Shown here: piece after piece, positions 16,259 to 52,715 of the stretch
Numbering within the stretch: position 1 is the first letter of the stretch
Layout of the letters: the number at the start of each line of letters is the position of its first letter
Virus record (IMG/VR): IMGVR_UViG_3300042332_001032
Coordinates: 1 to 57,748 of that record
Length of the DNA stretch: 57,748 nucleotides
Direction: 5' to 3' (one strand)
Origin: a virus
Lineage: Duplodnaviria; Caudoviricetes
Made by a program: the position numbers and the translations under genes
Notes under the pieces: generated by a model
What the model was told of the DNA's origin: nothing
Database searches by the model: none
The model's input: only the letters and a program-made list of their open reading frames with translations

Positions 16259-17815
16259 ATGAAAAACGAAATTACTGCATTTCTTAAACAAGAATATAAT
16301 GATTCATTACGGTTTTTAAAACCGAAAATGTTCATTAAACGATTTGGTCAAGATGTGTACAATAATATATGCGATTTTACACTTTTTTTAGAACATTCTG
16401 TACCATTTTCAAGACGAGTTTATTGTTTTCTCAACGATATAAGCGCAACACCTCTCTGTAAAGTATGTAATAAGGAGGTGAAATATAATCATAACACAGG
16501 TTATCAAAAATATTGTTCGAATGCTTGTAGACTATCTGATATTAAAAACATACAAGATATTAAACGACAGACTAATATTAGAAAGTATGGAACAACAAAT
16601 GTACTTACAAGTGTGTACGGTAAAGCAAAAAAGAAAGAAACATGTATTGAAAAATACGGAGTCGATAATTATGTAAAAACAGACGAATATAAAAATAGAA
16701 TAAAAACAGGAGATATAACGAGAGTATACAATACTGAGAAAAATAAAATTGTAAGTAGAGAAAAATATTATAAATTACTTGCCGTAAAATATCCAACTCT
16801 TACTCCACTTTTTTGTGTTGATGAATATAGAGGTGCGAATTCATACGATATTGTTTACCCGTGGCAGTGTGTAACATGTAACAAAAAATTTGAGCACTGG
16901 ATTAATAATAATTACCCCATCTTATGTCCGTATTGTAAGCCAAAGGGTACGTATTATGAGAATGTACTTAAAAAATTTTTTGAAAAATATAACATAGAGT
17001 ATATTTTTCGAGACAGAAAAAAACTTAACAATCTTGAAATCGACTTTTATTTACCGGGGTGTAACTTAGGCATAGAAATTAACGGTTTGTACTGGCATTC
17101 TGAAAAAAATATTACAGATCGTAATTATCATTTTAAAAAGACAGAAGAAGCTTTAGCAAACAACATAAGACTTATTCAGATTTTTGAGGATGAGTTTTAT
17201 AGTAAACAGGCAATTGTATTCTCGAGATTAAAGCATATATTAAACTTGCAAACCCGTTCAATATACGCAAGAGAGTGTTGTATTGAATCAATTACTAATC
17301 ATGTGAAAAGTTTATTCAATGAAAAATATCATATACAGGGAGATGTTAATACGAGTATCAACTACGGGTTATATTATAAAAAGAGACTCGTAGCCGTTAT
17401 GACGTTCTCAAAGCTTAGAAAAGCATTAGGTAGTAATTCTGAAGAAAATGTATACGAGCTTGTAAGATATTGCACAGTAAAAAACTTTAACATAGTCGGG
17501 GGAGCTGGAAAGCTTTTAAAATACTTCTGTAAAAATAACAACGTTAAAAAAATAATTAGCTACGCTGATAGAAGATGGTCATTAGGTAGCGTGTATGAAG
17601 CCATTGGTTTCACGCGAGAAAAAATAACATCTCCTAACTATTGGTATACAAAAAATTACACTACTCGTTTGCATAGATTCAATTTTCAAAAACATCTTTT
17701 AAAGGGTAAATTAGACGTGTATGATGAAAACCTCACTGAATGGGAGAATATGAAAGCCAACGGCTATACAAGAGTGTGGGATTGTGGTCATTTAAAGTAC
17801 GTAATGCAGACCTAA
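16259..17815 (+). CDS. Hef-like putative homing endonuclease
   Basis: KYG repeats, EIDFY...IEINGLYWHS PD-(D/E)xK motif, C-terminal ELVRY/SYADRRWS/WDCG domain. Confidence 0.8.
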   Translation: MKNEITAFLKQEYNDSLRFLKPKMFIKRFGQDVYNNICDFTLFLEHSVPFSRRVYCFLNDISATPLCKVCNKEVKYNHNTGYQKYCSNACRLSDIKNIQDIKRQTNIRKYGTTNVLTSVYGKAKKKETCIEKYGVDNYVKTDEYKNRIKTGDITRVYNTEKNKIVSREKYYKLLAVKYPTLTPLFCVDEYRGANSYDIVYPWQCVTCNKKFEHWINNNYPILCPYCKPKGTYYENVLKKFFEKYNIEYIFRDRKKLNNLEIDFYLPGCNLGIEINGLYWHSEKNITDRNYHFKKTEEALANNIRLIQIFEDEFYSKQAIVFSRLKHILNLQTRSIYARECCIESITNHVKSLFNEKYHIQGDVNTSINYGLYYKKRLVAVMTFSKLRKALGSNSEENVYELVRYCTVKNFNIVGGAGKLLKYFCKNNNVKKIISYADRRWSLGSVYEAIGFTREKITSPNYWYTKNYTTRLHRFNFQKHLLKGKLDVYDENLTEWENMKANGYTRVWDCGHLKYVMQT

Positions 17816-17834
17816 GATACGATCCACTTGAAAC

Positions 17835-17870
17835 AAAAAAAAAGCTTTGGCGAACCAAAGCTTTTTTTTT
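17835..17870. terminator. Bidirectional terminator between the HEG and gp23
   Basis: A-tract GCTTTGG-CGAA-CCAAAGC T-tract. Confidence 0.9.
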
Positions 17871-17896
17871 GATTGTTAATATTACTGTTAACTGTA

Positions 17897-19339
17897 TTAG
17901 AGATAACGTTTTGCAGCGCCAGCTTCCATACCAACCCCAAGACCTTGAACAATCAAGAGATGGTAATATAGATTAGCCCCGAATATATGGTCGACTACCC
18001 CGTAGCGGGTCAAGAGACCAACACGTGGTGAGAAGTCATTCGGCGCGATGGTTCTCTGAACCATAACAGGAATGTACGGGCAGTACACGATTCCAGTATC
18101 GTAGAATTCGCTCCCCTTATAGCCTAGTAAGGCGTAGTCAGTTGTAGGACGTGTTTGTGCATAACCACCACCGTAGCCACCTTGCTGGGCTTCAGTACGT
18201 GTATCGCGGTAAATCTGGAAGCGACCACCAACTGAACCAACCTTAGCAATACCAGTAGGCGCAGTGTTGACGTTACCGGCAACAGGCATCCAGGTGAAGT
18301 TAGGAAGGGACTCGAGGATAGCGCAAACACGAGGAGTACCAATGATGAAGTTAGCTGCACCACGACGGTTACGGATAGCAACGCGGTTGGCTTCAACGAT
18401 CAAACGATTGTAGAAGTCACGAGCGCGCTCACCAGACCAACGGCCGTCAGCAGAAGCTGCATGCCAGATGGAGTAACCGGTGTCAAGACCAGCATTCAAG
18501 CAAGTCTGAAGCATACGAGCGATCATTTCACGGTCGATTTCGGCTTGAATTTCATACGACATAGCGTTTGTTAATTCAGCGTCAACGTCGATGCCGTTCA
18601 TGTTACGAAGATCTTGCTCAAGTTCAGTTGACCATTTAGCAGCAAGACGACGTGTACCAGCTTCAACAGCAGTTTTGCTGAATTCGAGAGTCATTTGAGG
18701 AATCTTCGAGGTCAATTCGAACTGACTGATAAGGTTAGCAACACCAGAGTCTTCAACAGCCATTGGGAACAAGGAGTTGCCTGTCAACTGAGCACTGGAT
18801 GTACCAGTGAAGGTCGTGTTGAGGTAGTTATAACCAATTTCTTTGCCTTGTGGTACACCGCCACGCAGAGCGTTGTTAAGTGGGTTAGTTGCTAGACCGT
18901 CACTACCATTAGTTGAGAGACCGAGAGCTGTGTCTTCGTATCTATAACGAAGAGCGAAAGCTAGGCCAACTGGACCTGACATGGGCTGTACACCAACGAT
19001 CTCATTAGTAATGAGTTCTGGGAATGTACGGCGAATCATCGGGATGAGGACCTTAGGTAGACGAGCGTCGTTAGGTGCATAGGTATCACTGTTCGGTACT
19101 GCACCGCCGAATTGTCCAGTAGCGGCAGAACCGAAGACTGATCCTGATGAACCAGCGATGTTTGATGCTTCAAAGCACCATTTTTCTTGGTTTTCCAAGA
19201 GCATAGCGGTGCTAAGGCGAATGTGATCGTTTGTGATAGGAGAAACTTTGTCTGAAGTGTAGTCCAAAACTGGAGCCCACTTTTCAACCAAAGATTCAGC
19301 TCTCACTTTATCAATATGTAGAAGAGGATTTTTATCCAT
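17897..19339 (-). CDS. gp23: Major capsid protein
   Basis: LLENQE, GVQPMSGPVGLAFALRY, ELEQDL, EIQAEIDRE, YCPYIP, F.PRVG..TRYG. Confidence 0.98.
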   Translation of the reverse strand: MDKNPLLHIDKVRAESLVEKWAPVLDYTSDKVSPITNDHIRLSTAMLLENQEKWCFEASNIAGSSGSVFGSAATGQFGGAVPNSDTYAPNDARLPKVLIPMIRRTFPELITNEIVGVQPMSGPVGLAFALRYRYEDTALGLSTNGSDGLATNPLNNALRGGVPQGKEIGYNYLNTTFTGTSSAQLTGNSLFPMAVEDSGVANLISQFELTSKIPQMTLEFSKTAVEAGTRRLAAKWSTELEQDLRNMNGIDVDAELTNAMSYEIQAEIDREMIARMLQTCLNAGLDTGYSIWHAASADGRWSGERARDFYNRLIVEANRVAIRNRRGAANFIIGTPRVCAILESLPNFTWMPVAGNVNTAPTGIAKVGSVGGRFQIYRDTRTEAQQGGYGGGYAQTRPTTDYALLGYKGSEFYDTGIVYCPYIPVMVQRTIAPNDFSPRVGLLTRYGVVDHIFGANLYYHLLIVQGLGVGMEAGAAKRYL

Positions 19340-19396
19340 AATTTAATTTTTTAGTTTGTTTAAGTTTTTAACTGCGTTTTTGTAATAAGAGAGGGC

Positions 19397-46530: not shown

Positions 46531-47652
46531 ATGACACTACCAACACTTTTCAGCAGAACATCGACAGGAGCCGTACAAACTTGGACTATTGAAACTGAAG
46601 GTGACAAATACCGAACAGTCTTTGGTCAAGTGAACGGCGCTATCCAAACTACAAATTGGACGGTCTGTCATCCGACAAATGAAGGTAGAGCCAATGCAAG
46701 GAACGGAGAAGAACAAGCCGTTTTTGAAGCTAAAGCTCTCTGGAAAAAGAAAAAAGATTCTGGATGCTTTGAAGATATAAAAGACATTGATACGTCTTTG
46801 TTCACCGAGCCTATGCTCGCTAAGAAATATGAAGATTATAGTAGCGAACTAGCATACCCTGTCTATTCATCTTCTAAGTTAGATGGAACTAGGCTTGTAG
46901 CAAGAAAAGATGGCCTGTATAGCAGGAATGGTAAAAAATATGCAAGCGTTCCTCATATCCAGGAAGCACTTAAACCGTTCTTTGATCAGTATCCAGAAGT
47001 TATTCTAGACGGAGAGTTATATTGTGATAAGTTTGCAAATGACTTTAATGCTATCTGTTCACTAGTAAAGAAAACAAAACCAACAGAAGAAGATCTAAAA
47101 GCTAGTAAAGCTGCTATACAGTATTGGATTTATGATTGTGTGGATGTTAAAAAGAAATTTACAGAACGTTATAGGATTATTAAAAGTGCAGTTTCTATCT
47201 GCAATAACGAATCAATTTGTCTTGTAGAATCTACAGAAGTTAATAGCGATAAACACCTTAACGACCTTTACGAAGAGTATATTCAGCAAGGCTACGAAGG
47301 ACAAATGGTACGAGTTGATAAACCATATGAAATGAAGCGTTCTAAATATCTTCTCAAGCGTAAAGAGTTTCAAGACAGGGAATACGAAATTGTTGGAACC
47401 GTGGAAGGTGAAGGCAACAAAACTGGAATGCTTGGCGCTTTTGTTCTTAAAAACGATAACGGTTTATCGTTTAATAGTAATATCAAGGGTACAAGGGAGT
47501 ATCTCCAGGAGCTCTGGAGTGATAAAGATAAGCTCATTGGTAGACTTGCTACAGTAAAATATTTTAATCTTACCCCAGTTAATGAAGATGGGAGCGGCGG
47601 AGTTCCGAGGTTCCCCTACGTTATTAAAATTCGAGAGAGCTTTGACGTTTAA
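46531..47652 (+). CDS. lig: ATP-dependent DNA ligase
   Basis: PMLA, KLDG, LDGELY, YEGQM, RS..LLK.K, PRFP. Confidence 0.95.
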   Translation: MTLPTLFSRTSTGAVQTWTIETEGDKYRTVFGQVNGAIQTTNWTVCHPTNEGRANARNGEEQAVFEAKALWKKKKDSGCFEDIKDIDTSLFTEPMLAKKYEDYSSELAYPVYSSSKLDGTRLVARKDGLYSRNGKKYASVPHIQEALKPFFDQYPEVILDGELYCDKFANDFNAICSLVKKTKPTEEDLKASKAAIQYWIYDCVDVKKKFTERYRIIKSAVSICNNESICLVESTEVNSDKHLNDLYEEYIQQGYEGQMVRVDKPYEMKRSKYLLKRKEFQDREYEIVGTVEGEGNKTGMLGAFVLKNDNGLSFNSNIKGTREYLQELWSDKDKLIGRLATVKYFNLTPVNEDGSGGVPRFPYVIKIRESFDV

Positions 47653-47789: not shown

Positions 47790-47975
47790 ATGACTTTTAA
47801 AGAATATATAATTGAAAAATCTATTCACGACCCAGTACGTCCCGGTATTCTTAAAAGACAAATTAAAGGTAAGGTAACCTGTAGTAAAGCTAGAGCCTTA
47901 AAAGCTAAACAAAAGAATAAAGGTAACAATACAGCTAAAGCAGCTCAGAGATTTATAAATTACAGACATTGTTAA
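47790..47975 (+). CDS. Small basic late protein
   Basis: ATG after ATAAATA; RPG.LKR....TC.KA motif. Confidence 0.7.
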   Translation: MTFKEYIIEKSIHDPVRPGILKRQIKGKVTCSKARALKAKQKNKGNNTAKAAQRFINYRHC

Positions 47976-47986
47976 TAAATATATAC

Positions 47987-48730
47987 ATGACAAATCATGT
48001 ATATTATGTATATAAAACAATAAACAAACACAATTCAAAATATTATATCGGGGTACATCGTACTAACAATATAAACGACGGGTACATGGGATGCGGTCAT
48101 TATAGAGGTCGTAAGTTACGAGAAAATCTTGACACAAGACTTTATAGAGCGTTCCGTAAATACGGGGATGATGCGTTTACAACAGAAGTATTGTATATAT
48201 TTGAAAATGAGATTGACGCATATAATAAAGAAAAAGAATTGATTGATATTAAAGACAAAAACTGTTATAATGATAAACCAGGTGGGATAGGAGGATTCCA
48301 CCCTGACACGAATAAAGGTAGAGTTTTTACAGAGTCAGAAAGAAAAAAAATGAGTGAAGCTGCAAAAATACGCTCAAAACGAATTCTTCTACAGACTGAC
48401 ATATTAAAAGAGCACGTTAAGAACAGAACCGGTAAAACTTATGCTGAAATTTACGGTGAAGAAAAAGGTAAAGAAGTATCACTGAAGCGATCTAAATCCC
48501 TTACAGGTAGAAAGCTATCTGATGAACATAAACGTAAAATGAGCATAAACCGCAAAGGTAAAGACTGCGGTAAGAGTAAAGGTAGAGTGCAAGTTTGGAA
48601 TAATATAACAAAAAAAGGCATGAAAATACCGAAAGATGTTTTACAAGCAGGATTGAAAGAAGGTAACATAATTGAACAACTCTTTGTGAAAGATAAATTC
48701 CATAAATTTAAATTTTCAAAGATCAAATAA
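47987..48730 (+). CDS. GIY-YIG homing endonuclease with NUMOD3 repeats (Seg-like)
   Basis: YVYKTIN....YYIG, Y.G.G, KYG...F, YN..PGG.GG, SDEHKRKMS. Confidence 0.9.
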   Translation: MTNHVYYVYKTINKHNSKYYIGVHRTNNINDGYMGCGHYRGRKLRENLDTRLYRAFRKYGDDAFTTEVLYIFENEIDAYNKEKELIDIKDKNCYNDKPGGIGGFHPDTNKGRVFTESERKKMSEAAKIRSKRILLQTDILKEHVKNRTGKTYAEIYGEEKGKEVSLKRSKSLTGRKLSDEHKRKMSINRKGKDCGKSKGRVQVWNNITKKGMKIPKDVLQAGLKEGNIIEQLFVKDKFHKFKFSKIK

Positions 48731-48851: not shown

Positions 48852-49004
48852 ATGTCAAATAGATATTATTTTGGTCTCTTCCTTGCAACAGTACCATGGA
48901 CAGCTCTTACATTATCATATAATACCTGGCTTGGAGTATCTTTGCTCCCAGTCCAGATACTCGGTTTGTTCTTAATGCATAAATTTAGCAAAGATAAAGC
49001 CTAA
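48852..49004 (+). CDS. Small membrane protein (50 aa, not in ORF track)
   Basis: MSNRYYFGLFLATVPW...; two hydrophobic segments. Confidence 0.55.
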   Translation: MSNRYYFGLFLATVPWTALTLSYNTWLGVSLLPVQILGLFLMHKFSKDKA

Positions 49005-49020
49005 GAGCTTTTTTTTGTTC

Positions 49021-49092
49021 TTGCTAGTGCCTGCTTCTGGGCATAATATAGAAGCATAATAACGACAGCATCTGTTGTTAAATGATCTTTGA
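49021..49092 (+). promoter_or_regulatory. Promoter followed by hairpin and boxA-like antitermination signal
   Basis: TTGCTA-GTGCC..17 bp..TAATAT; hairpin 49060-49080; TGATCTTTGA 49083-49092. Confidence 0.55.
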
Positions 49093-49119
49093 TAGTCTTG
49101 ATAGAATTTTTTAAGATGG

Positions 49120-49887
49120 TTAGGAGCTGACATATAGCTCGGGTACATCCGATGTACCCGTGGGTTCGATCCCTTCTCCTACTTTCTTTAAGCGGAGTTT
49201 ATGTTCTATAATCTCTATAATAATATTAAAAAACTTTTGAGATGTTTCGATTTTAAAATATTTTTGTTGTGATGTATCAATGATACAGAGCTCAATACCT
49301 TTTTCGACACAAGCTTGAAACTTTCTTTTATCGTTATTTTGAATCTTTTGCAGTTGATTCGGACCGTAAATCGGTTCGTAGTGAAAAATACCATTTAGTT
49401 CAAATGCTATATTTAATGATGGTATATAAAAATCTAACTCAGAATTAATAGCGTCTTTGCGATTAAAGTGTATATTCAAATCCGGATATTTTAAAATTAA
49501 CTGTTCTTCTAACCAAATTTCTAATTTAGATCTACGTGTACCACGTGTCTTATGAGTGTTATTGTATGTCGCTGAACATGTACTACTACAAAAACGGTTT
49601 ATATTTTTTTTAAGTAAAGACGCTTTAACATATATTTCTTTGTTACACATAGTACAATTCTTAGTAATACCGGTTCTGTTATTATCACTTAAACATTTTC
49701 TTGTACAAAAATCTTTAGTATTCTCATTCCAATTCCATTTAAGCACATCTTTACTAAACAAAAACGCTTTACAATCCATTATTTGTCTTTTTGTTTTTAA
49801 ATACTCCGTATTACAATAATCGCAATTAACAGGTACTATGTCTTTACCTTTTAATTTGATAAACTCTTCTTTAGAAATTTTAATCAT
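49120..49887 (-). CDS. Putative PD-(D/E)xK homing endonuclease with zinc-ribbon repeats
   Basis: CxxC..FCS..C motifs, SKLE, ELDFYIPSL.IAFELNGIFHY; ATG after ATAAATA. Confidence 0.8.
   Translation of the reverse strand: MIKISKEEFIKLKGKDIVPVNCDYCNTEYLKTKRQIMDCKAFLFSKDVLKWNWNENTKDFCTRKCLSDNNRTGITKNCTMCNKEIYVKASLLKKNINRFCSSTCSATYNNTHKTRGTRRSKLEIWLEEQLILKYPDLNIHFNRKDAINSELDFYIPSLNIAFELNGIFHYEPIYGPNQLQKIQNNDKRKFQACVEKGIELCIIDTSQQKYFKIETSQKFFNIIIEIIEHKLRLKKVGEGIEPTGTSDVPELYVSS
49121..49183 (+). pseudogene. Degenerate tRNA-like sequence
   Basis: GGGTTCGATCCC T-arm and two hairpins, no canonical cloverleaf. Confidence 0.4.
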
Positions 49888-49959
49888 ATATTTATTTATG
49901 CTAAAAAACCGGTTTTCGAATCTCTCCGCCTCTTCCAAGTTTTTTTAGTGAAGTAAATA

Positions 49960-49987
49960 TTGCTAGTGCCTAAAAAGCTAGTATAAT
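49960..49987 (+). promoter_or_regulatory. tRNA-cluster promoter
   Basis: TTGCTA-GTGCC..16 bp..TATAAT; near-copy at 50420-50447. Confidence 0.65.
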
Positions 49988-50007
49988 ATTTTTTAGAATT
50001 TTTAAAT

Positions 50008-50089
50008 ACACCCGTATCACCACCGCCTTCTAAGCGGTCGTTAATCGTGTAACTGGAGTATGTGCGTTCGAGTCGCACCGGGTGTACCA
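50008..50089 (+). tRNA. tRNA-Arg(TCT)-like RNA lacking a D-arm
   Basis: ACACCCG/CGGGTGT-ACCA, ACCGC-CTTCTAA-GCGGT, GTGCG-TTCGAGT-CGCAC. Confidence 0.75.
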
Positions 50090-50100
50090 TTTTTATATAA

Positions 50101-50182
50101 GGGTAGTTCGGATAGTGGCAATTCCGGGAGACTGTAAATCTCTTGCCTTTCGGCTTCGCTGGTTCGAGTCCAGCACTGCCCA
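50101..50182 (+). tRNA. tRNA-Tyr(GTA)
   Basis: Cloverleaf, loop CTGTAAA, long variable arm. Confidence 0.92.
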
Positions 50183-50210
50183 GATCTTTTTAGCTTAAAT
50201 AAAATTATAC

Positions 50211-50312
50211 TGCGGGTTACAGTTCTGGGAACTGAGGGGTCTCATAGAGTTGCTTTGCTGAGGCGATTCTAGAAGCCTCTTTAGGAGAGTTCGATTCTCT
50301 CACCCGCTACCA
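50211..50312 (+). tRNA. tRNA-Met(CAT), initiator-like, with 27-nt insertion in the anticodon loop
   Basis: T1:T72 mismatch, encoded CCA; removing 50247-50273 restores GGGGT-CTCATAA-GCCTC. Confidence 0.8.
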
Positions 50313-50326
50313 TTTTTCTTTTAGAT

Positions 50327-50398
50327 GCCAGTATAGCACAGTGGTAGTGCAATGCTTTTGTAAAGCATGGGTCGGGGGTTCGAATCCCTCTACTGGCT
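50327..50398 (+). tRNA. tRNA-Thr(TGT)
   Basis: Cloverleaf, ATGCT-TTTGTAA-AGCAT. Confidence 0.92.
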
Positions 50399-50466
50399 GA
50401 TTCTCTTCTTAAAAATATCTGGCTAGTGCCTAAAAAGAATCTATAATAAGAAACATAAATTTAAAC

Positions 50467-50550
50467 GGTCGAGTGGCGAAATGGCGAAACGCAAGGGACT
50501 TAAAATCCCTTACATTAGAAACACTGTGGGTTCGAGTCCCACCTCGACTA
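50467..50550 (+). tRNA. tRNA-Leu(TAA)
   Basis: Cloverleaf, AGGGA-CTTAAAA-TCCCT, long variable region. Confidence 0.92.
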
Positions 50551-50573
50551 GTTTTCCTTACAATAACCAAACC

Positions 50574-51233
50574 TTGATCTCCTACAACAAATCCTATTTT
50601 CCGAATACTGAGTTTATCTTCGCACTCTCCGGGGGTATTGATAGTGTAGCTGCTTGTCATCTTCTAAAGAAGAAAAACTTTAATTTCATTGCAGTACATG
50701 TCAACAATAAATTCATTGAACAAGATGATGATATTGCTGAAGATGTTCAAAGGTTCTGCTACAAAGAAGAGATTCCGCTCCGTACTATTATCACTAAAGA
50801 GAAGTATGTTAAAGGTAGCAAAGAAGACTTTTGTAGAAACGTACGTTATAAAGCTCTAAGAGAGTATGCAGTAAGTCAAGAGGTTGATTTCATTTGCACG
50901 GCACATCACTTAGATGACTGTGTAGAATCGTACTTCTTAAACTTCCTTAAAGGGCATACAGAGTTTGTACCGATTCATTTTTACTGCAAATATCCAGAGG
51001 CTACAATCTTTCGACCATTTTTACTGAATAAAAAGCTTGAGTTTGCCTCATATGCAGCCCATAATAACCTCACACAATACGTTAAAGAAGATGAACTAAA
51101 TTCTGATTTAACGCTTATGAGGAACTGGACTAGAAAAGTAGTTCTTCCTGTAATTGATAAGAAGTATAAAGGTTTGCATAAAGTAGTTTTCAAAAAGATG
51201 AAGAATCATTTGGATAGTGTAGTGAAAGAGTAA
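50574..51233 (+). CDS. tilS: tRNA(Ile)-lysidine synthetase (catalytic domain only)
   Basis: ALSGG.DS, E...R..RY..L, TAHHLDD..E, RP.L...K, D..N......RN..R; probable TTG start downstream of tRNA-Leu. Confidence 0.9.
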   Translation: MISYNKSYFPNTEFIFALSGGIDSVAACHLLKKKNFNFIAVHVNNKFIEQDDDIAEDVQRFCYKEEIPLRTIITKEKYVKGSKEDFCRNVRYKALREYAVSQEVDFICTAHHLDDCVESYFLNFLKGHTEFVPIHFYCKYPEATIFRPFLLNKKLEFASYAAHNNLTQYVKEDELNSDLTLMRNWTRKVVLPVIDKKYKGLHKVVFKKMKNHLDSVVKE

Positions 51234-51246
51234 GTAATTTTTATAA

Positions 51247-51324
51247 GCCTGTGAAGCTTAAGTAGTTATAAGCACCTGTTTCATAAACTGGAGATAGTGG
51301 GAGCATGCCCCACGACAGGCACCA
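51247..51324 (+). tRNA. tRNA(CAT), probably Ile2 (lysidine)
   Basis: GCCTGT/ACAGGC-ACCA, loop TTCATAA, atypical T-loop; adjacent to tilS. Confidence 0.75.
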
Positions 51325-51360
51325 TTTAAAAAGATGCATTGTAAGAGTAGTTTATATACC

Positions 51361-52407
51361 TTACAATGCATCTTTTTTTCTTTTCCAATTATTAGGAATC
51401 GGTATTCCCATATCTTCCATAGCAAATTTTAAAAATCTATCATACCCTCCCAATTCTTTAAAACCTAATACTCTACCAGTTCGGGACTTTGAATACTTCT
51501 TCTCTATACATTCTACAATAAGGTCTCTTTTAGAGATAAAAAAATTAACTAATGTACTATTATTTCTTTCATGCTGCCTCCAACAATCATCGCTACAAAA
51601 CTTCTTACCATAGCGTTTATAAGGTATATTAAAAATATTACCGCAATTTATACACTCTCTCGTAAGTTCTTCTTGCGACACCTTAGTGTACTCAATAACC
51701 GGTAACACTGAAAGATCGATCTTACAATCACGAACTCTCTCTTCAATACGTTGCTTTATTAATTCAAAATAAGGTATCCCTAATTCGTTCTTAAAACCTG
51801 TCATTCTAGAAACATCTAATACATGTAGCTCTATGTTATTATTCTTGCAAAATTCTGACTTTTTTGTATCATTTGCAATTGTACATTTAAATACTTTTTC
51901 GCCGTGTATTGGTTTGTAATGATGTATACCATTTATTTCAAATGCTAACTTTAAGGATGGTATATAAATATCTAATTCTAAATCAGATCCATTCTCGGTT
52001 CTATCGTTAAAAAGCATTTTTAATGTCGGAAACGTTTCTTTTAAATTCTTTTCAATAAAATATTCAATTTTAGATTTTCTAGTACCGTGTGTTTTATGTT
52101 TATTGTTAAAAACTGCACTACAAGACATTCCACAAAATATATTACCTGGGCGACCTAAACGTTTTTGCTTTCTTGAAAATGTTAATTTACCGAAAGAATC
52201 TTTATATTGTATAATAGTGTTACATTGCTTACATGTCAGAGGAGCTTTTAGATATTCAGCTTCAACGATTGTCGATAGTTTTTTAGAGCCACATACATAC
52301 TCAGGTTTATGTACAACGCTATGAGAATTAAGAGCTCTTTTTGAATTAAATGTTTTATTACAGATTTCGCAACAAAACTCGTTATAAGTATTATTATATA
52401 TTTTCAT
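51361..52407 (-). CDS. Putative PD-(D/E)xK homing endonuclease with C2H2 and zinc-ribbon motifs
   Basis: CEIC...H...H, SKIE, LELDIYIPSLKLAFEINGIHHY; paralog of 49120..49887. Confidence 0.8.
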   Translation of the reverse strand: MKIYNNTYNEFCCEICNKTFNSKRALNSHSVVHKPEYVCGSKKLSTIVEAEYLKAPLTCKQCNTIIQYKDSFGKLTFSRKQKRLGRPGNIFCGMSCSAVFNNKHKTHGTRKSKIEYFIEKNLKETFPTLKMLFNDRTENGSDLELDIYIPSLKLAFEINGIHHYKPIHGEKVFKCTIANDTKKSEFCKNNNIELHVLDVSRMTGFKNELGIPYFELIKQRIEERVRDCKIDLSVLPVIEYTKVSQEELTRECINCGNIFNIPYKRYGKKFCSDDCWRQHERNNSTLVNFFISKRDLIVECIEKKYSKSRTGRVLGFKELGGYDRFLKFAMEDMGIPIPNNWKRKKDAL

Positions 52408-52421
52408 GTTTGTGTTAATTT

Positions 52422-52492
52422 TTAAGAGAGGACAGCTAGCTGTTTGTGTCTAGTTTCTTTAAAGGTACGAACTTTAAAGATTACTCTCTTAA
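52422..52492 (-). other. Structured 5' leader of the HEG
   Basis: 9-bp closing stem TTAAGAGAG/CTCTCTTAA enclosing two hairpins, between TAAATA and the ATG. Confidence 0.5.
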
Positions 52493-52562
52493 TATATTTA
52501 TTTCAAAAAGCTAATTTTCACTATTGACATCTTCCATTACACAAAATAAATAAGTTTTATAT

Positions 52563-52644
52563 TCTCCGTTAGTAGAATGGTAAATACACCCGACTGTTAA
52601 TCGGGAGCTGAAAGGCACTCTTGGTTCAAGTCCAAGACGGAGAG
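52563..52644 (+). tRNA. tRNA-Asn(GTT) with long variable arm
   Basis: TCTCCGT/ACGGAGA-G, CCCGA-CTGTTAA-TCGGG, variable arm GCTGAAAGGC. Confidence 0.88.
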
Positions 52645-52686
52645 AATTTCATCTACCTTTCCTTTTCCCTAGGTGGATTTCTTTCC

Positions 52687-52715
52687 TTGCAGGTTCCTCA
52701 ATAAGAACCTATACT
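52687..52715 (+). promoter_or_regulatory. Sigma70-like promoter with GTTCC extension
   Basis: TTGCAG-GTTCC..17 bp..TATACT. Confidence 0.65.

What the first reader, a model, noticed from the sequence alone, without database searches (positions are those of the whole stretch)
50211..50312. Initiator-like tRNA-Met with a 27-nt hairpin at the canonical 37/38 intron position
Seen: the insert forms an 11-bp stem (TAGAGTTGCTT/AGGCGATTCTA) that borrows the last anticodon base and position 37. It is too short for a group I/II intron, and I see no bulge-helix-bulge. Known: 37/38 is the archaeal/eukaryotic protein-spliced intron site. Inference: an intron removed by an unknown phage nuclease and ligase, or a masked tRNA that blocks an anticodon nuclease or homing endonuclease.
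Basis: partly seen in the sequence, partly recalled or inferred. Interest (0 to 1): 0.7.

Follow-up and report, generated by a model that had tools for sequence, protein, structure and literature searches.

The report
Hairpin mini-intron in phage tRNA-Met
A freshwater phage's initiator-like methionine tRNA gene is interrupted just after its anticodon by a 27-base hairpin that belongs to a small, conserved family of similar inserts in other phage tRNA genes, and no known bacterial or phage splicing mechanism accounts for them.

Summary
Window 50211-50312 is a complete tRNA cloverleaf (CAU anticodon, unpaired 1:72, A11:U24, encoded CCA) with a 27-nt hairpin inside the anticodon loop. Uninterrupted orthologues in 9 other viral contigs define the insert exactly. 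Its placement is ambiguous, 36/37 or 37/38, so "canonical 37/38" is not established.

The insert is not unique junk. I found three more solid cases: the same tRNA-Met in another phage (30 nt) and tRNA-Thr(UGU) in two phages (29 and 32 nt). All share a G-A-G/U-U-C hairpin base, and the upper stem changes on both sides while staying paired (31 of 32 cells paired). Removing one nucleotide before GAG through three after UUC restores the uninterrupted loop in 4 of 4.

It has no bulge-helix-bulge motif and is not a group I intron. Identical DNA occurs in two other lake studies.

The tRNA cluster is full of homing endonuclease genes. A zinc-finger/Vsr-like family lies within about 1.2 kb of 3 of the 4 interrupted genes.

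Best reading: a protein-spliced mini-intron tied to homing-endonuclease conflict. It may be cut RNase III-style and sealed by the T4-type RNA ligases this lineage encodes. Splicing itself is untested, because no RNA data were available.

The parts
50211..50245 (+). 5' exon of the initiator-like tRNA-Met: positions 1-36, ending with anticodon CAU
   Evidence: Aligns base for base with uninterrupted orthologues (G001, L010-L017).
50246..50272 (+). 27-nt insert (mini-intron) in the 36/37 register; equally 50247-50273 in the 37/38 register
   Evidence: This is the only stretch absent from the 9 uninterrupted orthologous contigs.
50247..50269 (+). Hairpin core running from the conserved G-A-G to the conserved U-U-C
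   Evidence: Of 1000 shuffles of the insert, 1 folds as well. The base triplets are shared with L008 and L104.
50273..50312 (+). 3' exon: A37 to A73 plus the encoded CCA (50310-50312)
   Evidence: It is 97% identical over 37 nt to the G001 orthologue.
49962..49987 (+). Promoter-like motif upstream of the co-oriented array (odd tRNA-like element, Tyr, Met, Thr); one of three copies (49023, 49962, 50422)
   Evidence: There are 3 matches and 0 expected in 100 shuffles.
49120..49887 (-). Free-standing homing endonuclease: zinc fingers plus a Vsr-like nuclease domain, 255 aa
51361..52407 (-). Paralogue of the zinc-finger/Vsr-like homing endonuclease
47969..48730 (+). GIY-YIG/NUMOD3 homing endonuclease
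50327..50398 (+). Uninterrupted tRNA-Thr(UGU), next gene downstream; its orthologues in G007 and G008 carry the related insert

Best explanation
The locus is a functional gene for a phage initiator-like tRNA-Met, interrupted by one member of a small family of 27-32-nt hairpin mini-introns. These introns sit immediately 3' of anticodons that end in U.

Shown here:
- The insert is real and is absent from orthologues.
- It has homologues in tRNA-Met of a second phage and in tRNA-Thr of two others.
- The family keeps a G-A-G/U-U-C hairpin base and an upper stem that changes on both sides while staying paired.
- The exons keep every stem intact.

Inferred:
- At the DNA level, the insert splits the highly conserved anticodon-arm sequence in a tRNA cluster crowded with free-standing homing endonucleases. 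It may therefore act as an immunity or co-mobilised element, as ORF-less group I introns do in collaborative homing.
- At the RNA level, the intron zips the anticodon loop into a rod of roughly 20 bp and is removed by proteins.
- The geometry that works in all four cases is a cut 1 nt 5' of GAG and 3 nt 3' of UUC. That leaves a 2-nt 3' overhang, the RNase III signature, with 3'-OH and 5'-phosphate ends in the anticodon loop.
- The T4 Rnl1/Rnl2-type ligases encoded by this phage lineage could seal those ends directly.
For: Real insert:
- There are 9 uninterrupted orthologous contigs against 2 interrupted ones among the 11 with the 5'-exon pattern.
- Only these 2 carry an anticodon-loop insert among the 84 matches to the 3'-end pattern.
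- Identical DNA occurs in two other lake studies.

Family:
- L008 tRNA-Met carries 30 nt.
- L004/L103 tRNA-Thr carries 29 nt.
- L104 tRNA-Thr carries 32 nt, and both of its ends resemble the window insert.
- A strict motif scan of 1.82 Mb gave 3 hits against 0 in the reversed control.

RNA-level selection:
- Over 8 stem levels in 4 sequences, 31 of 32 cells are paired. Both-side changes occur at levels 1, 4, 5, 7 and 8, and G-U pairs are retained.
- The exons of window and L008 differ at 3 of 72 positions, and 2 of these form a compensatory D-stem pair.
- T, D and anticodon stems vary while staying paired across the 44 parsed family members.

Excision rule: it restores the uninterrupted loop in 4 of 4.

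Ligases:
- An Rnl2-type ligase (PF09414) is present in 6 of the 8 related records searched. That includes all 3 other contigs with solid inserts (G004, G007, G008); it is absent from the window fragment.
- An Rnl1-type ligase (PF09511) is present in G005, G006 and G008.

Endonuclease context:
- PHROG matches are to homing endonucleases.
- The predicted fold matches Vsr, I-Bth0305I and AbaSI.
- The family lies within about 1.2 kb of 3 of the 4 interrupted genes and is absent from the uninterrupted G001 and G006.
- A homologue also sits beside a group I-interrupted tRNA-Leu in L003.
- Collaborative homing is described in PMC3984707 (passages read).
Against: - There is no RNA evidence at all. All 23 runs that hold the sequence are DNA, so splicing is pure inference.
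- The ligases also occur in relatives without inserts, so their presence is not specific.
- None was found in the window fragment, which is about 27% of a genome.
- No phage RNase III was found in 0 of 5 fragments.
- The 2-nt-overhang rule relies on junction ambiguity. It may simply reflect common ancestry of four homologous inserts.
- The insert is rare: 2 of 84 family matches, and 3 solid cases among roughly 700 tRNAs scanned.
- G004 has no recognisable endonuclease next to its interrupted gene.
- The endonuclease family sits beside tRNAs in 69 of 80 loci, most of them uninterrupted. Adjacency is therefore weak evidence.
- The L103 hairpin alone is no more stable than shuffles: 648 of 1000 fold as well.
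- Pairing between the intron tail and the anticodon is only partial.
Confidence: 0.42

Rival explanations
1. The insert is never removed. The gene is either an insertion-inactivated tRNA, tolerated because the host supplies initiator tRNA, or a non-decoding tRNA-like RNA. In the second case it could act as a decoy or masked substrate for anticodon nucleases. The benefit of the insert would then lie only at the DNA level, as resistance to a homing endonuclease.
For: - Reviews list no enzymatic tRNA splicing for bacteria. PMC4033280 names only group I and II introns there (passages read).
- The insert is rare and patchy.
- No splicing enzyme lies in the fragment.
- The anticodon is base-paired inside the rod.
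- Degenerate tRNA-like genes do occur beside these endonucleases.
Against: - All four interrupted genes keep perfect cloverleaf exons.
- The hairpin shows both-side compensatory changes and retained G-U pairs, which argues for selection on the RNA.
- The same intron family occupies the same loop position in two different tRNA species.
- The gene sits in a promoter-driven tRNA array and encodes CCA.
Confidence: 0.33
2. It is an archaeal/eukaryal-type intron, cut by an EndA-family splicing endonuclease at a bulge-helix-bulge motif and joined by RtcB.
For: The intron lies next to the anticodon, is short, and pairs partly with the anticodon. The 37/38 placement is formally allowed in the window.
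Against: - No bulge-helix-bulge can be drawn. The loop nucleotides 32-35 do not pair with the intron's 3' end in the required register (read directly).
- L008 excludes 37/38.
- EndA (PF01974) was found in 0 of 5 fragments and RtcB (PF01139) in 0 of 5.
- The promoter motifs, the TilS-like gene and the tmRNA of a relative all point to bacterial hosts.
Confidence: 0.04
3. It is a self-splicing or ribozyme-derived element: a remnant of a group I intron, or a minimal ribozyme, that still splices, perhaps with help in trans.
For: - Relatives carry true group I introns in tRNA-Leu(UAA).
- The upstream exon ends in U in the 36/37 register.
- The window insert ends in G in that register.
Against: - At 27-32 nt it is far below any catalytic core.
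- No Rfam family matches.
- The terminal G is absent in the three relatives in the same register.
- There is no internal guide sequence complementary to the exon end.
- Its ends bear no resemblance to those of the tRNA-Leu introns.
Confidence: 0.03
4. It is an artefact or a misreading: either an assembly error, or really a tRNA-Ser(AGA) with a 29-nt intron at 29/30 as ARAGORN prints.
For: ARAGORN's intron-mode output.
Against: - Identical contigs occur in two other studies.
- Orthologues have an uninterrupted CAU loop and identical exons.
- A Ser tRNA would need a long variable arm, which is absent (established knowledge).
Confidence: 0.01

Closest known systems
[quoted passage not shown]
   Same: An endonuclease-free insert interrupts a highly conserved gene segment next to a free-standing homing endonuclease gene. 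Its distribution among relatives is patchy. In relative L003, the same endonuclease family sits beside a genuine group I-interrupted tRNA-Leu.
   Different: The insert is 27-32 nt with no ribozyme core, so it cannot self-splice. The endonuclease target is untested. One of the four loci has no endonuclease nearby.
Group I introns in bacterial tRNA anticodon loops (tRNA-Leu UAA, tRNA-fMet, tRNA-Ile CAU, tRNA-Arg CCU)
   Same: They sit in the anticodon loop after a U, in bacterial-type tRNA genes including initiator tRNA, and are mobile and patchily distributed.
   Different: Size is about 200-250+ nt against 27 nt. There is no P1-P10 architecture, no Rfam match and no conserved terminal G.
Archaeal/eukaryal protein-spliced tRNA introns
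   Same: They are short, adjacent to the anticodon, and pair with part of the anticodon loop. Removal must be by proteins.
   Different: There is no bulge-helix-bulge. The common register is 36/37 or measured from the hairpin, not 37/38. The host context is bacterial, and no EndA or RtcB was found in the fragments.
Intervening sequences of bacterial 23S rRNA excised by RNase III (recalled, not checked in a paper here)
   Same: A hairpin-shaped insertion sits in a stable RNA of a bacterial system. The helix is long enough for RNase III, and the geometry is compatible with 2-nt 3' overhangs.
   Different: The rRNA fragments are not religated. A tRNA nicked in the anticodon loop would need sealing. 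Those intervening sequences are also several times longer.
'Enigmatic introns' in tRNAs of Lak megaphages (bioRxiv 10.1101/356790; passages read)
   Same: These are phage tRNA genes with non-group-I inserts near the anticodon. The inserts are conserved across samples, some alleles lack them, and the mechanism is unknown.
   Different: The phage lineage and habitat differ. At least one Lak intron is large enough to look like a tRNA. Their sequences are in a supplementary table I could not open, so relatedness is untested.

Membership tests
Bacterial initiator tRNA (tRNA-fMet) | CAU anticodon in a 7-nt loop | tested here: inconclusive
   The loop is CUCAUAA only after the 27 nt are removed. As encoded, the loop is interrupted.
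Bacterial initiator tRNA (tRNA-fMet) | No Watson-Crick pair at 1:72 | tested here: met
   The window has U1:U72. Of 44 parsed family members, 32 have U:U and 6 have C:U. The classical pair is C:A (recalled).
Bacterial initiator tRNA (tRNA-fMet) | A11:U24 in the D stem | tested here: met
   The window has A11:U24, as do 32 of 44 parsed family members.
Bacterial initiator tRNA (tRNA-fMet) | Three consecutive G-C pairs at 29-31:39-41 | tested here: not met
   G29-C41 and G30-C40 are present, but 31:39 is U-G. It is therefore 'initiator-like', not a proven initiator.
Archaeal/eukaryal BHB tRNA intron | Bulge-helix-bulge motif at the splice sites | tested here: not met
   The fold is a continuous rod with one 1x1 mismatch and one 1-nt bulge. 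The required 4-bp helix between positions 32-35 and the intron's 3' end cannot form.
Archaeal/eukaryal BHB tRNA intron | EndA-family endonuclease and RtcB or Trl1 ligase available | tested here: inconclusive
   PF01974 was found in 0 of 5 records and PF01139 in 0 of 5. All records are fragments, 10-58% complete.
Group I intron | Catalytic core recognised by RF00028 | tested here: not met
   No match in the window. The same model scores 50.1 bits on the tRNA-Leu intron of L003.
RNase III-excised intervening sequence | Double-helical substrate of about two turns, with cuts staggered by 2 nt | tested here: inconclusive
   The rod is roughly 18-20 bp. A 2-nt 3'-overhang excision restores the mature loop in 4 of 4. 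Cleavage itself was not tested.
Collaborative homing pair | Free-standing homing endonuclease gene beside the interrupted gene | tested here: met
   This holds for window, G007 and G008, that is 3 of the 4 solid loci, and not for G004.
Collaborative homing pair | Endonuclease cleaves the uninterrupted allele at the insertion site | not testable with these tools
   This needs a cleavage assay.

The most novel reading that the evidence does not exclude
These hairpins are a new class of protein-spliced tRNA introns in viruses of bacteria. They would be excised by a double-strand-specific RNase at a fixed distance from a conserved G-A-G/U-U-C hairpin base and resealed by phage T4-type RNA ligases. 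That would give those long-puzzling ligases a housekeeping substrate. The introns would spread between different tRNA genes (Met and Thr) in partnership with Vsr-like homing endonucleases that target tRNA anticodon arms.
Probability: 0.27. Interest if true: 0.9.

Novelty: new variant of a known kind. Interest (0 to 1): 0.68.

Why it matters
Reviews state that bacterial-type tRNA genes carry only self-splicing group I or II introns (PMC4033280, passages read). A conserved, structured 27-32-nt insert cannot self-splice. Yet here it sits in otherwise intact tRNA genes of four phages.

If it is removed, an enzymatic tRNA-splicing route exists in a bacterial system. That would suggest a natural substrate for phage RNA ligases beyond repairing anticodon-nuclease damage. 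If it is not removed, phages keep deliberately masked or sacrificed tRNA genes as a cost of homing-endonuclease warfare.

Either way, the four aligned cases give exact predicted cut sites, so a direct bench test is possible. The finding also matters for annotation: default tRNA finders miss these genes or misname them. ARAGORN called this one Ser and the Thr case Asn.

Tried and rejected
- **RNA evidence.** No RNA holder was listed among the 23 runs. I laid four DNA runs only, and no joint skipped the insert.
- **First pattern scan.** It forced an A after CAT and found nothing.
- **Protein-anchored searches with the TilS-like neighbour.** They gave only 3 viral and 2 metagenome loci.
- **blastn against named phages.** It gave only tRNA-sized matches. 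None of the 30 rows shown, of 166, covers the Met gene.
- **Other copies of the insert.** There are none in the window or the loci.
- **ARAGORN at lowered thresholds.** It produced hundreds of false 'introns': variable arms and fused neighbouring tRNAs. I dropped this route.
- **Brute-force hairpin deletion plus ARAGORN.** Most extra hits were chimeras of adjacent tRNAs, or deletions of D or variable arms. These were discarded on inspection.
- **Not counted as solid cases.** L076 is a class II tRNA with a 32-nt GNRA hairpin but no uninterrupted orthologue. L039, L013, L135, L177, L178, L191 and L204 have irregular anticodon regions.
- **MAFFT alignment of the four arms (A2).** It put the Thr introns one column out of register. 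I therefore counted pairs by script in a register anchored on the hairpin base, not with the pair-count tool.
- **Sequence search of solved structures with the endonuclease profile.** It found only zinc fingers. The fold search was needed.
- **Gene-content comparison of intron-bearing and intron-free contigs.** Apart from the endonuclease family, it found only a phosphoribosyltransferase gene in 3 of 4, which I take as unrelated.
- **Hammerhead, RegB-site, RNase P/Z, dif-like and IS200/IS605-end readings.** I considered each from the sequence and dropped it for lack of the defining motifs. This was inference only, with no tool test.
- **Literature searches.** Searches turned up no paper describing short hairpin introns in phage or bacterial tRNAs, other than the Lak preprint.

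Full report
**What the record is**

The window is the whole held record: a 57,748-bp virus contig with 35.9% G+C. CheckV rates it about 27% complete. Near-identical DNA occurs only in lake and freshwater metagenome runs. Positions 49000-52700 form a tRNA cluster.
- Default ARAGORN finds Tyr, Thr, Leu and Asn.
- Rfam adds a second CAU tRNA at 51247-51321 (33.9 bits). It lies just after a TilS-like PP-loop gene.
- A promoter-like motif occurs three times, at 49023, 49962 and 50422, and nowhere else. None is expected in 100 shuffles.
- The finding lies 224 nt downstream of the second copy, in a co-oriented array.

**The observation**

The stretch 50211-50312 reads as a full cloverleaf.
- The acceptor stem has 6 pairs plus an unpaired U1:U72, followed by A73 and an encoded CCA.
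- The D stem has 4 pairs and includes A11:U24.
- The anticodon stem has 5 pairs.
- The T arm has 5 pairs and a standard loop.
- The anticodon loop holds 27 extra nucleotides right after CAU.

ARAGORN in intron mode returns a tRNA at exactly these coordinates. Default ARAGORN and the Rfam tRNA model miss it. The MFE fold is the cloverleaf with the anticodon arm prolonged into a rod. It scores -44.1 kcal/mol, z = -3.95, and 0 of 200 shuffles fold as well. The insert alone forms an 11-pair hairpin with a 2-nt 3' tail, and 1 of 1000 shuffles is as stable. Contigs from two other studies cover the insert with no differences, and no contig skips it. So the DNA is real.

**Orthologues define the insert**

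The 3' exon matches the 124-kb relative G001 at 97% over 37 nt. There the gene is uninterrupted, with the same acceptor, T arm and variable loop, and it is followed by tRNA-Thr(UGU) as in the window.

A 5'-exon pattern found 10 IMG/VR contigs. Counting the window, 9 are uninterrupted and 2 are interrupted: the window and L008. A 3'-end pattern gave 84 matches. Again only these two carry an anticodon-loop insert, while three others have long extra arms in the variable region.

Across the 44 parsed members, T, D and anticodon stems vary while staying paired. U:U or C:U at 1:72 occurs in 38, and A11:U24 in 32. This is a widespread phage family of initiator-like tRNA-Met. One initiator mark is missing, because 31:39 is U-G rather than G-C.

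ARAGORN's own label for the window gene, Ser(AGA) with a 29-nt intron at 29/30, is ruled out by these orthologues.

**Where exactly the insert sits**

Comparison with the uninterrupted sequence leaves several possible placements in each case:

| Case | tRNA | Allowed placements |
|---|---|---|
| window | Met | 36/37 or 37/38 (an A flanks both ends) |
| L008 | Met | 35/36 or 36/37 |
| L004/L103 | Thr | 34/35, 35/36 or 36/37 |
| L104 | Thr | 35/36 or 36/37 |

The only register common to all four is 36/37. "Canonical 37/38" is therefore possible for the window alone but is not supported by the family.

**It is a family**

- L008 (contig G004) has the same tRNA-Met with a 30-nt hairpin.
- L004, whose IMG/VR copy is L103 (contig G007), has the tRNA-Thr(UGU) orthologue with a 29-nt insert. 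ARAGORN mislabels it Asn. The Rfam tRNA model spans it at 58.1 bits.
- L104 (contig G008) has tRNA-Thr(UGU) with a 32-nt insert, spanned by Rfam at 52.3 bits. Its first six and last several hairpin nucleotides match the window's insert.

I anchored the four hairpins on their base triplets: G-A-G paired to U-U-C, or U-A-G to U-U-A in L103. Over eight stem levels, 31 of 32 cells are paired. Levels 2 and 3 are invariant (A-U, G-U). Levels 1, 4, 5, 7 and 8 show changes on both sides. With only four sequences this is suggestive, not statistical proof.

A strict motif scan over all 1.82 Mb held found three loci and none in the reversed control. The motif required an anticodon stem, U33, the hairpin with its triplets, and a purine at 37. 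A brute-force deletion scan over about 830 kb and roughly 700 tRNAs found no further clean case. The phenomenon is real but rare.

The window and G004 otherwise share only one gene. The insert-bearing phages are therefore not close strains of each other in the parts we hold.

**What it is not**

- **Not bulge-helix-bulge.** The loop and the intron tail form a near-continuous helix.
- **Not group I.** There is no Rfam hit, no guide sequence and no conserved terminal G. The same Rfam model recognises the genuine tRNA-Leu(UAA) intron of relative L003 at 50.1 bits.
- **Not a repeat element.** The genome holds no other copy.
- **No splicing genes in the fragments.** EndA, RtcB and RNase III genes were each found in 0 of 5 lineage fragments. 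All of these are partial genomes.

**A regularity that suggests a mechanism**

In each of the four genes, I removed the piece running from one nucleotide before the G-A-G through three nucleotides after the U-U-C. This restores exactly the uninterrupted loop. Because the first removed nucleotide faces the nucleotide just after the U-U-C, the excised hairpin would carry a 2-nt 3' overhang. The two scissile bonds then lie two base pairs apart across a helix of about 18-20 bp. That is the geometry of RNase III products (established knowledge, recalled).

Such cuts leave 3'-OH and 5'-phosphate ends in the anticodon loop. T4 Rnl1-type ligases seal that substrate without end-healing (recalled).
- Rnl2-type genes (PF09414) are present in G001, G004, G005, G006, G007 and G008.
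- Rnl1-type genes (PF09511) are present in G005, G006 and G008.

The ligases also occur in insert-free relatives. The rule itself could be a by-product of common descent. I therefore hold this mechanism at low-to-moderate confidence.

**The neighbourhood points to homing-endonuclease conflict**

- ORF 47969-48730 is a GIY-YIG/NUMOD3 homing endonuclease.
- ORFs 49120-49887 and 51361-52407, both on the minus strand, are paralogues with zinc fingers and a C-terminal nuclease domain.
  - They match PHROGs annotated as HNH or homing endonuclease.
  - The AlphaFold model of the 49120-49887 ORF has mean pLDDT 86.5. It best matches the Vsr-like nucleases AbaSI and PvuRts1I, the homing endonuclease I-Bth0305I, and Vsr itself. 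Probabilities are 0.99-1.0 and target-normalised TM is about 0.53-0.54 for the latter two.
- In an all-against-all comparison of six contigs, this family occurs in the window (twice), G007 and G008. It does not occur in G004 or in the insert-free G001 and G006.
- In G008 the gene lies about 140 nt from the interrupted tRNA-Thr. In G007 it lies about 1.2 kb away.
- A 60%-identical homologue sits beside the group I-interrupted tRNA-Leu of L003.
- The family is large, with 4626 homologues, and it lives in tRNA clusters. Of the best 80 IMG/VR loci, 76 have a tRNA within 3 kb and 69 within 600 nt.
- This mirrors collaborative homing, in which a free-standing endonuclease targets the site that an ORF-less intron interrupts (PMC3984707, passages read).
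- Adjacency is weak evidence, since most tRNAs beside these endonucleases are uninterrupted.

**Literature**

[quoted passage not shown] The Lak megaphage preprint reports "enigmatic introns" in phage tRNAs and suggests they may be common in large phages (10.1101/356790, passages read). Seven full-text searches found no description of hairpin mini-introns of this kind or of their splicing.

**Verdict**

The locus is one of four solid examples of a conserved hairpin mini-intron in phage tRNA-Met and tRNA-Thr genes. Whether and how it is removed remains open.
- I put about 0.4 on a spliced intron tied to homing-endonuclease conflict. RNase III plus Rnl is the most concrete and testable version of that reading.
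- I put about 0.33 on an unspliced, sacrificed or masked tRNA.

Noticed in passing
window 50008-50090 (+): An odd tRNA-like gene with a good acceptor stem, T arm and encoded CCA. It has no D arm and a 23-nt extra region, and its anticodon-like loop would read UCU. ARAGORN and Rfam both miss it. It matches, at about 76% identity, a feature annotated 'tRNA-TERM' in Salmonella phage 7t3 and unannotated DNA in other ~340-350-kb enterobacterial phages.
   Followed up: partly
window 49100-49184 (+); G008 19305-19391; G007 47925-48008: The 3' end of each zinc-finger/Vsr-like endonuclease ORF runs antisense into a CAU tRNA or tRNA-like gene. In G007 and G008 these are 84-87-nt tRNA-Met genes with a long extra arm. 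In the window there is a degenerate version that ARAGORN calls only at an 80% threshold.
   Followed up: partly
window 50574-51233 (+) and 51247-51321 (+): A TilS-like PP-loop ATPase (PF01171, E = 5.9e-31) is followed directly by a second CAU tRNA with an unusual T loop. This is probably a phage-borne tRNA-Ile2/lysidine pair. The gene order is conserved in relatives L001-L004.
   Followed up: partly
L008 3709-4163 (-): The phage contig carrying the second interrupted tRNA-Met encodes a full-length tmRNA immediately downstream of it (Rfam 103.5 bits).
   Followed up: no
L003 5026-5312; L002 5701-5987; L017 6456-6798; G004 17681-17965: Relatives carry tRNA-Leu(UAA) genes with 189-257-nt introns inserted after U34 and ending in G. 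The L003 intron scores 50.1 bits on the group I model. The window's own tRNA-Leu(UAA) is uninterrupted.
   Followed up: partly
L127-L206 (80 IMG/VR loci): The zinc-finger/Vsr-like endonuclease family is almost confined to tRNA clusters: 490 tRNAs lie in 508 kb around it. Several neighbouring tRNA-like genes have irregular, expanded anticodon regions. One of them, L178 3728-3850, contains a GAG...UUC hairpin.
   Followed up: partly
L076 9520-9646 (-): A class II tRNA, possibly Leu(UAG), has a 32-nt, 13-pair hairpin with a GTAA loop right after the anticodon. It begins with the same few nucleotides as the window insert. No uninterrupted orthologue was found, so the splice register is uncertain.
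   Followed up: partly
L030, L039, L087: Some members of the initiator-like tRNA-Met family carry 11-16 extra nucleotides forming an extra arm in the variable region.
   Followed up: no
window 46531-47652 (+): An ATP-dependent DNA ligase (PF01068 plus an OB domain) lies 2.5 kb upstream of the tRNA cluster. It is also present in G008 and L016.
   Followed up: no
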